A stretch of DNA of 64,000 nt. It comes from Octopus sinensis (Eukaryota). The stretch covers positions 55,056,001 through 55,120,000 of the forward strand of contig NC_043012.1 in NCBI RefSeq assembly GCF_006345805.1, in the 5' to 3' direction. The notes below the pieces were generated by a model that was not told the origin of the DNA, did no database searches, and saw only the letters and a list, made by a program, of their open reading frames with translations. This document shows, piece by piece, positions 49,401 to 55,400 of the stretch; within the stretch, counting starts at the first letter, position 1; each line of letters starts with the position of its first letter. Position numbers and translations under genes: made by a program.

Positions 49401-52400
49401 CTCAAGCAATAGTTCTCAGCCATTTTTTTTTTTGCCTGTGAACCCTTTGATTCTTCAGCGGAACCTCCCATGGCCATTTGAAGTTTAAAAAAATCCCATT
49501 ATATGTATTTTCATAATTAAATATTATTAGGAATTGAATAAAAAAAACTGCTAAAATATTTAGTGTATCACAGAAGTAGAACTGATCTACTGCACATAAA
49601 TTTTAACAACAAAATCATGTATGGACCCTCAAAGGTTATGAGGATTCTTGATTGAGCACCACTGTGCTAAAGGATTAAATACAGTACTGGCAGAGCTCAT
49701 ATGTAGTAGTCATAGTAGTAGTAGTAGTAGTAATAGCAGCAGTGACCCTAAATAATGAAGAATGTGAGGTGATGGCAGTGGTAGTAGTGATGGTGGTGGT
49801 AGTAGTGATGGCAGTGGTAGTGGTGATGGCAGTGGTTGTAGTGATGGTGGTGGTGGTAGTAGTGATGGCAGTGGTAGTAGTGATGGTGGTGGTAGTAGTG
49901 ATGGTGGTGGTAGTGGTGATAGCGGTGGTAGTAGTGATGGTGGTGGTTGTAGTGATGGCGGTGGTAGTAGTGATGGTGGTGGTAGTGGTGATGGCGGTGG
50001 TAGTAGTGATGGCGGTGGTTGTAGTGATGGCGGTGGTAGTAGTGATGGTGGTGGTAGTGGTGATGGCGGTGGTAGTAGTGATGGTGGTGGTAATGGTGAT
50101 GGCGGTGGTAGTGGTGTTGGTCTATGTAGGTCCTTACCTCATCACTTTCACTGTCAAAATCACTGCTGTTAGGGATCAGGATTTCCTCCTCAGCTGCCAC
50201 TTTCAACACTTTGTTGATACTGATTTCTAACTGAGCACGAAGGTCTCTGAAACGAACCAAACAGAAACACCTCTTACATTTAATTACATGCTGTCATCAA
50301 ATTGCTGGGGCTGTAATTATGGGTCCTTAAAATAACAACAATGACAGAAGAAAAGACTGGAATAGAGAATTTAAAAAAAAAAAAAAGAATCATTCCCAAA
50401 GTGATAAGGAATTATTGAACAACTAATTTAATTTTAGTAAAACAGAAGTGTTGTTGGCCAGTGAAGTAATTCTGCTGAACACTTGGTCTTTGGATATGCC
50501 GGTGCTACTTATCTGGGCAAAATATCTCTTTTATTTTTCTCTTTTACTTGTTTCAGTCATTTTGACTGCGGCCATGCTGGAGCACTGCCTTTAGTCAAGC
50601 AAATTGACCCCAGGACTTATTCTTTGGAAGCCTAGTACTTATTCTATCAGTTTCTTTTGCCGAACTGCTAAGTTACGGGGATGTAAACACACTACCCTCG
50701 ATTGTCAAGCGATGTTGGGGGGGACAAACATATACACACAAACATATACATATATATATAGATATATATATATATATAGACATATATATGACTGGCTCCT
50801 TTCAGTTTCCGTCTACCAAATCCACTCACAAGGCTTTGGTTGGCCCGAGGCTATAGTAGAAGACACCTGCCCAAGGTGCCACGCAGTGGGAATGAACCTG
50901 GAACCATGTGGTTGGTAAGCTGTTAATGATATCTTTCAAAGCTTTTGTAGAAAAGGTGATGGCCAATTAATTCAGTTTATTGTGCAGTTAAGAAGTTTGC
51001 TTTGTAACCACCAGGTCTCTGGTTCATTCTCACAGCACAGCATCTTGGACAAGTGTCTTCTACTGTAGCCTTCAGCAGACCAATGCCTTGTGAATGGAAT
51101 TGGTACAGAGAAACTACCTAGAAACCTGTCATTTATATATGTGCATAAACATGTGCAAGTACATAAACATTATCATTTCCACTTTTTTGCATGAAACTAT
51201 TTGGGCTAAAAAAAAAAATGGTGAAATCACATTGATATCCTCTGTGGGTAACACAACTTGAGGCTCTGCACTTTTGAAATTTAGTGGAATAGAAATTAGT
51301 GACAGGAAAAGCATGATTTAATTAGAGAAAGTGAATTGGATTACGAGATAATCAGAGATATTTTAGTGTTATGTATACACACCTGTAATTGAAGAGGTTC
51401 TGACTAGAATTTATATAATCACAATCGTCATTGTTTTAAAGCCCAATTTTCCATGCTTGCATGGCTTGGATGGAATTTGAGGCAGATTTTCTACATCCTT
51501 GCTGATGCTAACCCTCACCTATTTCCAAGCAAGGTAACATTGCCAAGGCATTTTTATATTGAATATTGAAGATGAATGATTCAGCTTGTATGACAGTGAT
51601 ACTCATTGACAACTGTCTGTCAATGTCATGACAAAGAGACACAAACATACACAACAGGTGTGGCTGTGTGGTAAGAAGCTTGCTTCCCAGCCACATGGTC
51701 CTGGGCTCAGTCCCACTGCATGGTGCCTTGGGCAAGTGTCTTCTACAATAGCCTTAGGCTGACCAAAGCCTTGTGTGTGGATTTAGTAGATGGAAACTGA
51801 TAGAATCCTGTCATATATATATATATATATATATATATAGATGTGTGTGTGTGTCTTTGTGTCTGTGTTTGTTGCTTGACAGCCAGTGTTGATGTGTTTA
51901 TGTCGCTGTAACTTAGCAGCTCAGCAAAAGAGCCTGATAGAATAAGTACAAGATTTAAAAAAAAAAGTCCTGGGGTTGACTTGTTCAACTAAAACCCTTC
52001 AAGGTGGTGCTCCAGCATGGCCACTGTCAAATGACTGAAACAAGTAAAAGAATACTCACCATCACACACATATGCGCATGGGTGTGTGTATGACAGACTA
52101 CTCTGTTTTCATCAATCAAATCCACTCACAAGGCTTTGGTAGACCCAGGGCTATCATAGAAGACACTAGCTAAAAATGTTAAGCAGTAGGACTGAACCTG
52201 AAAGCATGTGGTTGGGAAGCAAATATCTTAACCACACAGCCATATATATATATATATATATATATATATATATATATATATATATTTATATATCAACAAT
52301 TGAGGGTAAAATTAATTAATTATTAATCAATTTCACCAAGTATTCAGTATGTAAAGGGACCATTTTAGGCGAATTCAAAATATTACATTATATATAAGGG

Positions 52401-55400
52401 CTTAGTAAAATAAATTACTTTGCCACATACTGAACTCATTAGAAATAGCAGCTAAAGAAATTTCTTCAGCTATTTCTAATACTTAAAGAAGATCTCTCTC
52501 AGATAGTGTTTGCCTAAACCAACTCACAAAAGTATGGGGGAAAAAAACATTAAAAAATCAAGTGCAAAGGTTATTTGAGAACGTATGTTTCTAGATTAGT
52601 CAATTCGACATTTCTTTCGTCAGCTCAGAATTCCTTGAATCGGATTTGGGAACACTGAAAGTCGGGAGCATACTCTTTCGGCTTCTAATCACCTCTAGAA
52701 TTCTGCTCGAACTAAAAGTGCTATCAAATTCGAATATGCAAGCGAAGAATTTCTGCTCTCCCCTTTCCACCAGCGTGGGTTAAAATTGACAAACACCATG
52801 TATTAACGGTGAAAACCGCAGCATTTAACAGAGAGAGATGAATTATAATTTCAACAATTGAGGGTAAAATTAATTAATTATTAATCAATTTCACCAAGTA
52901 TTCAGTATGTAAAGGGACCATTTTAGGCGAATTCAAAATATTACATATATATAAGGGCTTAGTAAAATAAATTACTTTGCCACATACTGAACTCATTAGA
53001 AATAGCAGCTAAAGAAATTTCTTCAGCTATTTCTAATACTTAAAGAAGATCTCTCTCAGATAGTGTTTGCCTAAACCAACTCACAAAAGTATGGGGGAAA
53101 AAAACATTAAAAAATCAAGTGCAAAGGTTATATATATATATATATATATATATATATATATACATATATATACATATATATATATATATATATATATATA
53201 TATACATATATACATATATACATATATATATATATATATATATATATATTTATATATATATATATTTGGATTGGCGAGCTGGCAGAAATGTTAGCACGTC
53301 GGGCGAAATGCTTCACGGTATTTCGTCTGCCGTTACATTGTGAGTTCAAATTCTGCTGAGGTCGACTTTGCCTTTCATCCTTTTGGGGTCGATAAATTAA
53401 GTATTAGTTACGCACTGGGGTCGATGTAATTGACTTAATCCGTTTGCCTGTCTTTGTTTGTCCCCTCTATGTCTAGCCCCTTGTGGGTAAGAAAGAAATA
53501 TATATATTTGGATTGTTAATGGCAAAGGAGATTCTAAGCAGGAGTGGAGGATCATGTAGTTGATTATTGCACTAACGCTTTTGTTAGTGACATGGTCCCT
53601 ACAAAAACATTGAAGTTAGAAGCAGAGCTTGTTGAGTATTTTCTCTCAAGAAATATTTGTCAAGATGGACAATGACACCACTAGAAATGAGTGTCAACAA
53701 AGCAATGCCCACTTCATTATATCAATGAAAATGAAAGCATAGTTTGGAATATATTTTTTTTTCTGATGCGAGTTGTGTAGTTTACAATTTACAAGCTAAT
53801 GAAGCACAAATTTAGCTGTGTAACAAAGAAATTGATGTGCAAGAATCAACATCTTTTAAATATATGTGAACATATTACCTGTCAGCAACTTGCCTGAATC
53901 CAACCTATCTGGACAGGTAATTGTCACATGACAATGGACAAAAATCACACTCCCGCACCAACAACCAAATTATCACCAAATTCCATCCAAATTTACGAAA
54001 CATTTTTCTATGAATTTTATACAAGAATAACAGCATTTTTCATTAAAAAATCTCTAGTTTTTAATAGGACAGGGAGATTTACATAGAGAAAGCAGTACAA
54101 GAGTTTAATAGTTAAAGGAAGGCTGGAAGAGGAACCAATGGATATTACTACTAGCTTTGGGCATCATGATGATGCTAATATTAATTTGATAATTAATGGA
54201 GGTGATTTAGAAAAGAAACAGGTATGTGACCAGCTGCATACCCAGAACTTTGACCAGAACTTCAAACATTGAATATGTTTTTGCAAGTTAGATTGAAGAA
54301 GAGGAGGAGAAGGGGCAGTGCTTTTGACCTTTATGGATCAAAATAATCAATCATAGAATTATTAATAAGAGATTTTAACAATCTATGTATCAGTGTTTGA
54401 ACAGATGTTTGGTTAGATAAAATAAACGACTTCTAACATTTTCAGTGACTTCATTAGTTTGTCAAAAAAAATAAAACAAAATGACAAAGAAAATGTCTGT
54501 CTTAACGAAATTTCTAACTATTGTGAAAATATAGTTCAAGGTATCATCATCATCATCATCATCGTTTAACGACCGTTCTCCATGCTAGCATGGGTTGGAC
54601 GGTTCGACCGGGGAATCTGGGAAGCCAGAAGGCTGCATCAGGCTCCAGTCTTATCTGGCAATGTTTCTACAGCTGGATGCCCTTCCTAACGCCAACCACT
54701 CCGTGAGTGTAGTGGGTGCTTTTTACGTGCCACCCGCACAGATGCCAGGCGAGGCTGGCAACGGCCATGGTCGGATTGGTGCATTTTACGTGCCACCGGC
54801 ACGGAAGCCAGTCGAGGTGGCGCTGCGCTATATGATCAAATAAACCCTACATAGAGGTGCAAGTGGGGGTATACTCGGGGGGTATTGGTGTAGAAACGTC
54901 CGGTATTGGAGGAGGGGATGGGAGGGAGGGCGGGCGAACCTCGAAGCAACGAGTTTGAATATAATTCGTAGGAAAGTTAAAGTCTTAGCTGGCCATTTTT
55001 CTGAAAATCCGTGTTTTGTCAGGAAGATGCAGCGAGTATGAGTTCGTGCCGATTTTTAAAGGAAAGAAAAAGGTCAATAAATACTTGCCATTACATTTTT
55101 AATCAACCAAATATGAACCATTTTGTTGCATAATGCGTCTCCATCTTTCCTTTAACTTGAAAATACCCTCTTCCCAGAATTCAGGTGGTTTCATGGCAAA
55201 GAATTCATCAAGGTATTTTTTTATGTCATCCAAAGAATTGAAATTTTTAGACTATTCTGTGGAGACCTGAATAAGTGGAAATCTGAAGGAGCAATATCTG
55301 GTGAATATGGAGGGTGGGGTAACACATCCCAGCCGGGCTGCAGCAATTTTTGTCTGGTTCCCAAAGCATCAGGTGCCGAAAATGAACTTTCTTATCTTCC

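What the first reader, a model, noticed from the sequence alone, without database searches (positions are those of the whole stretch)
52293..53131. 1.5-mer tandem unit whose 5' end maps to its own ribozyme cleavage site
Seen: a unit of about 558 bp is followed by a near-identical 281-bp partial copy, and the whole sits in (TA)n. A minus-strand hammerhead (52576-52627) predicts cleavage between 52580 and 52579. The partial copy, which is the element's 5' end on the minus strand, stops at the position equivalent to 52574, about 5 nt from that site. Inference: the inserted cDNA came from a ribozyme-processed RNA copied for more than one unit length, as expected for a circular (retrozyme-like) template or a PLE pLTR tandem. 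The repeat identity suggests a recent event. The ribozyme is in sense with the RUNDC1 pre-mRNA intron and might cut it.
Basis: partly seen in the sequence, partly recalled or inferred. Interest (0 to 1): 0.75.

Follow-up and report, generated by a model that had tools for sequence, protein, structure and literature searches.

The report
Penelope-copied hammerhead repeat in intron
This is one young copy, inside a gene's intron, of an abundant 558-base non-coding repeat that carries a hammerhead-ribozyme motif and is likely pasted into TA microsatellites by a Penelope-type retrotransposon enzyme; across the family, copy ends are only mildly over-represented just short of the predicted cut and almost never lie on it.

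Summary
Observation confirmed: a 558-bp unit plus a 281-bp copy in (TA)n, a minus-strand minimal type I hammerhead with predicted cut 52580/52579, in sense within an intron of a RUN-domain gene. It belongs to a non-coding family with at least 941 insertions and 3,353 copies that read through the cut site. Insertions start at a fixed point, and 119 of 149 add an inverted arm ending at a second fixed point about 90 nt away: the Penelope tandem/inverted/tail signature. The title claim holds only weakly. 9 of 149 first arms end 1-8 nt short of the cut (about 3 expected), none on it, and other clusters are as strong. This copy's end is a TTAT microhomology junction that 8 of 23 nearby ends share. 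Units within an insertion are near-identical, which favours a re-copied monomer or circle, but one insertion shows a heterogeneous multimer template. This copy has one hammerhead with a damaged dimer palindrome, so intron cutting is unlikely. It is a non-LTR retrozyme, a known kind; this scan noted sister families with the same two-armed design on other DNA of this genome. No autonomous partner was identified.

The parts
52242..52292 (.). (TA)n target tract at the element's fixed 3' end; no target-site duplication can be defined
52293..52850 (-). One full 558-bp unit, subfamily c5 (98-99% to the best genomic copies); RNA sense is the minus strand; longest stop-free frame lying inside the element 62 codons
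52851..53131 (-). 281-bp 5'-truncated second copy; ends at unit 279-282 in a TTAT microhomology with the TA tract, 5-8 nt short of the next predicted cut
52293..52389 (-). 'Tail' between the two fixed family ends: first arms start at unit 1, inverted arms end at unit 80-101 (modes 95, 88, 97)
52303..52480 (-). Structured RNA domain around the second start point (hairpin, long stem with inner hairpin, further hairpin); 5 of 41 predicted pairs show compensatory change across subfamilies and a sister family
52576..52627 (-). Minimal type I hammerhead motif; predicted cut 52580/52579 after GUU; A.A mismatch at the base of stem II
52580..52589 (-). Stem III / dimer palindrome; family AACGUACGUU, here AACAUACGUU (private change at 52586, 0 of 24 other c5 insertions); self-duplex -2.7 against -11.6 kcal/mol
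53129..53265 (.). (TA)n tract at the truncated 5' end
50137..50246 (-). Downstream flanking exon of the RUN-domain host gene
55724..55863 (-). Upstream flanking exon of the host gene; the 5.5-kb intron 50247-55723 holds the element

Best explanation
This is a one-armed, 5'-truncated insertion of an abundant non-coding 558-bp hammerhead repeat (non-LTR retrozyme) that is likely copied in trans by a Penelope-like element's endonuclease and reverse transcriptase, which would nick (TA)n and start copying at fixed internal points on an RNA that is mostly uncut at the ribozyme. Shown: fixed first end, second fixed end about 90 nt away on an inverted arm, variable 5' ends, TA targets, tandem arms of up to 5.5 units in the unbiased sample, shared private variants in both arms. 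Inferred: both DNA strands prime on one RNA; copying runs through the hammerhead, probably round a monomer circle in most cases and along a multi-unit transcript in some; it stops at RNA structure or TA microhomology. A small share of first arms stops 1-8 nt short of the cut, by stalling at the extended stem I or by running off a cut RNA and being trimmed. For this copy I put a cleaved 5' end at about 0.3.
For: At least 941 TA-joined starts and 3,353 copies spanning the cut site. 119 of 149 insertions are two-armed, with second ends at 80-101 in 110 of 113 closed cases; 43 of 149 first arms exceed one unit and 74 pass position 290. In c5, units differ by 0.44% within an arm, 0.50% between arms and 2.4% between insertions; L142 has 10 unit pieces with 11 shared and 0 unshared variants. 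The circular fold is stronger on the hammerhead strand (z -5.2 to -7.2) than on the other (-3.6 to -4.7; 25 shuffles). Compensatory pairs lie in the start domain. A coding Penelope-like family in the same genome (RT + GIY-YIG) also lands in (TA)n and shows two 3' ends about 35 nt apart. In vitro, the anole Poseidon protein cuts and extends both strands at AT-rich DNA, starts at two internal RNA sites that define the tail, and uses uncut RNA (PMC11167929).
Against: No coding element sharing sequence with the unit was found. No circle, cleavage or transcript end was seen: only contigs were served and no holder is on record as RNA. L063 has 4 sites whose alleles match unit by unit in both arms, and 5 of 30 testable insertions have such a site, which a monomer circle cannot give. 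The tail is about 90 nt against the 30-40 bp reported for PLEs (PMC8557442). Stem II has a non-canonical closing pair in all four subfamilies, so activity is unproven. The sample comes from contigs C1-C4 and needs an exact junction motif.
Confidence: 0.75

Rival explanations
1. One reading: the RNA was cut by the upstream hammerhead, the enzyme read through one uncut hammerhead, ran off the cut end at 287, and 5-8 nt were trimmed to the TTAT microhomology.
For: First-arm ends in 279-287 are about 3-fold enriched (9 of 149); TA-joined ends fall from 23 to 10 across the site; termination per kb drops from 3.9 (200-290) to 1.6 (290-400) in the first unit.
Against: 0 of 268 sampled arm ends and 1 of 23 TA-joined ends lie at 287; second arms show no excess; 229-241 and 116-136 cluster as strongly; the upstream control window has more ends (32); the drop coincides with a GC rise from 29% to 39% and is not repeated in the second unit (1.5 then 2.4 per kb); 2 of the 9 share one junction.
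Confidence: 0.3
2. All tandem arms are copied from linear read-through transcripts of existing arrays and later expand by unequal exchange; circles play no part.
For: Mirror alleles in L063, L133, L194, L205, L206; period-2 alleles at 5 sites in L197 and period-4 alleles in L194 show multimer templates or later block duplication. Uncut RNA is the dominant substrate for the anole enzyme (PMC11167929).
Against: Most multi-unit insertions are homogeneous and carry many private variants in every unit (220 shared sites against 8 mirror sites in 85 insertions), which needs a route from one unit back to many.
Confidence: 0.35
3. The unit is the orphan terminal repeat of a coding Penelope-like element, or the 1.5-mer is a local duplication or assembly error.
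For: Retrozymes resemble PLE pLTRs in frogs (10.64898/2026.07.22.740005). Long reads over this locus were not seen.
Against: In about 150 sampled insertions no arm continues into a PLE reading frame; two nearby PLE frames are separate insertions without similarity to the unit. The same 1.x-mer design recurs at dozens of loci.
Confidence: 0.05

Closest known systems
Animal non-LTR retrozymes (PMC7229834; bioRxiv 10.64898/2026.07.22.740005)
   Same: Non-coding, low-GC (34%) tandem unit with one type I hammerhead per unit, thousands of copies; mismatch at the base of helix II as in axolotl HHR_Amex2; PLEs proposed as mobilisers.
   Different: 558 bp is above the 150-450 bp of the first paper (within the 51-972 bp of the second). 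Short dispersed two-armed insertions in (TA)n with two fixed ends are not described in the parts I read. Circles and cleavage are untested here.
EN+ Penelope-like elements, e.g. Poseidon of Anolis (PMC11167929) and the general PLE layout (PMC8557442)
   Same: Partial tandems, inverted 5'-truncated arm, tail at one end only, AT-rich targets, two internal start points, minimal hammerhead with palindromic helix III.
   Different: No RT or GIY-YIG frame; tail about 90-95 nt against 30-40 bp; the start points lie in AU-rich, TA-like sequence that could pair with the target, whereas the anole element starts at a site not homologous to the cut DNA.
Minimal PLE hammerheads (PMC4209133; review PMC6765202)
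   Same: Short helix I, 2-bp helix III with 4-nt palindromic loop, expected to work as dimers with low activity.
   Different: Helix II is interrupted by a 3x3 loop and closed by A.A, U.U or G.U; this copy has lost the palindrome and has no partner motif in cis.

Membership tests
Non-LTR retrozyme | Tandem unit of a few hundred bases in many genomic copies | tested here: met
   558-bp unit, arrays up to about 14 units, at least 941 insertions
Non-LTR retrozyme | Type I hammerhead motif in each unit | tested here: met
   Core and helices kept in four subfamilies; 3,353 exact copies of the stem III-stem I stretch; no Rfam hit
Non-LTR retrozyme | No coding capacity, GC below 45% | tested here: met
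   Longest frame inside the element 62 codons; GC 34%
Non-LTR retrozyme | [quoted passage not shown] | tested here: not met
   This insertion has one hammerhead; many other family insertions meet it
Non-LTR retrozyme | Self-cleavage and expression as monomeric circular RNA | not testable with these tools
   Only contigs served; no raw reads
Non-LTR retrozyme | No LTR, primer-binding site or polypurine tract | not tested
   No terminal direct repeat other than the tandem itself was seen; PBS and PPT were not searched for
Autonomous Penelope-like element | ORF with telomerase-like RT and GIY-YIG endonuclease | tested here: not met
Penelope-type insertion footprint | Partial tandem, inverted 5'-truncated arm, tail at one end | tested here: met
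   119 of 149 two-armed; fixed ends at 1 and 80-101; tail longer than reported
Penelope-type insertion footprint | Sequence shared with the pLTR of a coding partner | tested here: inconclusive
   None in 12 + 30 loci of two coding families; other PLE families were not examined

The most novel reading that the evidence does not exclude
The insertion record of this family reads out how a Penelope enzyme uses a ribozyme RNA: one RNA is primed twice at a conserved, covarying start domain, monomer circles and uncut multimers both serve as templates, and only the arm from the outer start point is stopped just short of the hammerhead cut. The start domain of about 190 nt would be a transferable signal for (TA)n-targeted insertion.
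Probability: 0.3. Interest if true: 0.65.

Novelty: new member of a known kind. Interest (0 to 1): 0.4.

Why it matters
Mobilisation of animal retrozymes by Penelope enzymes, and the role of circles and of the hammerhead in it, are proposed but not shown in the papers read. A young family with about a thousand insertions, two mapped start points and allele patterns that distinguish circle from multimer makes both points testable in vitro. The specific claim that this copy's end marks cleavage is not reliable, and an effect on the host gene is unlikely.

Tried and rejected
Rfam gave no hammerhead; folding of the isolated motif was uninformative. One control pattern (1 hit) was invalid, because its anchor matched only a minor allele; it was left out. 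The first structure string was one column off and was replaced. In alignment A2 one row (L169) is partly out of register. Partner hunt: the Penelope-like family with a fragment at window 24671-25234 and the family beside L150 share no significant sequence with the unit; a 70% match at L231 led to a non-coding sister family. Sequencing runs: no RNA holder listed on record; contigs of guessed RNA runs cover the unit but cannot show ends, strand, circles or level. Presence/absence and long-read support at this locus were not tested, because contigs cannot span the TA tracts. Paper searches for octopus retrozymes or twin priming in retrozymes gave no description of this family; the library is incomplete. 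PMC5785218 is not held. No supplements were read; those of PMC11167929 (Fig. S2) and PMC7229834 (Fig. S9) may bear on end mapping and on the mobilisation model.

Full report
Observation. The window holds a 558-bp unit (52293-52850) and a 281-bp copy of its start (52851-53131) that differ by one 1-bp indel, between two (TA)n tracts. The minus strand at 52627-52576 has all core nucleotides of a type I hammerhead, with the cut predicted after GUU between 52580 and 52579, unit position 288/287. Rfam misses it and the motif alone folds no better than shuffles. The copy ends at unit 279-282, since TAT is shared with the TA tract, so it stops 5-8 nt short of the next cut. Contigs from 4 of 4 guessed RNA runs join exons on both sides; splice ends are GT-AG on the minus strand and a later exon hits Pfam RUN. 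The element is thus intronic and in sense. The name RUNDC1 is recalled, not tested. That the animal is an octopus is my guess from genome size and repeat content.

Family. The own genome gave 172 matches from 39 of 1,666 candidates, 941 exact TA-joined starts and 3,353 exact copies across the cut site. 98 full units fall into four main subfamilies; this copy is in c5, mean pairwise distance 1.4%. N7, H17 and loop II of the hammerhead vary while helices stay paired (99.1% of 116 cells, slid controls 27-44%, no compensatory change). The base of stem II is A.A, U.U or G.U in the four consensus units. A sister family of about 590 nt, 70% alike over the first 160-190 nt, has a hammerhead at the same distance with a different complementary stem I and the same GUAC loop.

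Architecture. I took 150 loci from the first listed places (contigs C1-C4); 153 junctions were oriented and 4 dropped as duplicates. Of 149 insertions, all start at unit 1 by selection; 119 have an inverted second arm, which ends at 80-101 in 110 of 113 closed cases (modes 95, 88, 97); 43 first arms exceed one unit; 32 of 119 are near-perfect fold-backs. This is the partial-tandem, inverted-copy and tail layout of Penelope-like elements (PMC8557442, passages), with a longer tail. The anole Poseidon protein cuts and extends both strands of AT-rich DNA, starts at two internal RNA sites that define the tail, and uses uncut RNA; no reads ended at its hammerhead site (PMC11167929, parts 1-2 of 4). 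Around the second start point 5 of 41 predicted pairs show compensatory change across 8 sequences of the two families. The window copy is one of the 20% one-armed cases.

Do 5' ends map to the cut? Mostly not. Of 236 independent ends, 9 lie in 279-287 (local expectation 4.5, p=0.04) and 18 in 229-241. I chose the window 279-287 from the cut and from this copy's end. Genome-wide, distinct TA-joined ends, counted by hand from the listings, were 32 at 198-212, 23 at 278-292, 10 at 296-310 and 9 at 487-501 (the anchors cover the subfamilies unequally). Of the 23, 8 have this copy's exact junction, 1 lies on the cut and 3 lie beyond it. So there is a small excess just short of the site, which also is where stem I extends (unit 281-287), and ends generally favour TA microhomology. 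A cleaved end would need a linear, partly cut RNA and cannot also argue for a circle.

Template. In c5, units differ by 0.44% within an arm, 0.50% between arms and 2.4% between insertions. In 85 insertions with three or more unit pieces, 220 variant sites are shared by all units, 253 are single, 8 are mirrored unit by unit in both arms (5 of 30 testable insertions), 6 are shared out of register and 19 otherwise multiple. Both arms therefore come from one source. Homogeneous arrays with many private variants suggest that a single unit is copied repeatedly, as on a circle; the circular fold is strong and stronger on the hammerhead strand. L063, with four mirrored sites, needs a heterogeneous multimer (or later conversion between arms); L197 and L194 show period-2 and period-4 patterns. 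I infer that both templates are used. Identity between this copy's two parts (0 substitutions in 280 bp) fits a recent insertion.

Host gene. Minimal PLE hammerheads with palindromic helix III are reported to need dimers and to cut slowly (PMC4209133 and PMC6765202, passages). This insertion has one motif and a private change in the palindrome (0 of 24 other c5 insertions; duplex -2.7 against -11.6 kcal/mol). Spliced contigs exist, though from animals that may lack the insertion. Cutting of the pre-mRNA is unlikely.

Partner. Two large coding Penelope-like families are present. One has RT and GIY-YIG hits, lands in (TA)n and has two 3' ends about 35 nt apart, so it is a candidate donor of enzymes, but neither shares significant sequence with the unit.

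Comparison and verdict. It works like, and on the testable features is, an animal non-LTR retrozyme (PMC7229834, passages and Discussion; 10.64898/2026.07.22.740005, parts 1-3 of 5), with a Penelope-type footprint; it is not an autonomous PLE. Searches showed no description of this family. The scan had no note on this sequence or place but several on sister families with the same two-armed design, which are unchecked AI notes. New member of a known kind; interest 0.4.

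Noticed in passing
L244-L273 (e.g. L252:1500-2090, L250): Sister non-coding tandem family, unit about 590 nt, 394 candidates, with a homologous start domain, a hammerhead with GUC triplet, two fixed ends and TA targets.
   Followed up: partly
window 24339-25234 (+): Fragment of a Penelope-like element (CxxC motif and GIY-YIG-like motif by eye; no Pfam hit); 16,373 candidates in the genome, open frames up to about 1,000 codons.
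   Followed up: partly
L150:2050-4547 (-), L213-L242: Second coding Penelope-like family (RVT_1 and weak GIY-YIG hits), inserted in (TA)n with two 3' ends about 35 nt apart and a hammerhead-like motif about 100 nt from the end; frames of 784 codons recur.
   Followed up: partly
L063: Four variant sites match unit by unit, counted from the 3' end, in both arms: a heterogeneous multi-unit template or conversion between arms.
   Followed up: partly
L197, L194, L141: Alleles alternate with period 2 (five sites in L197) or period 4 (L194): dimer circle or later block duplication.
   Followed up: no
L105 and L130: Two insertions on different contigs with different flanks share the same inversion junction (unit 285 to 350).
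   Followed up: no
unit 229-241 and 116-136 (window 52521-52533, 52408-52428): Clusters of arm ends as strong as or stronger than the one at the ribozyme; they lie in or beside predicted long stems.
   Followed up: partly
window 4065-20404 (+): Exons of a gene with weak Exo_endo_phos hits, recalled as neutral-sphingomyelinase-like, on the strand opposite to the RUN-domain gene.
   Followed up: no
window 10248-10547 (-), 55156-55404: Mariner-like transposase remnants (motif recalled, not tested).
   Followed up: no
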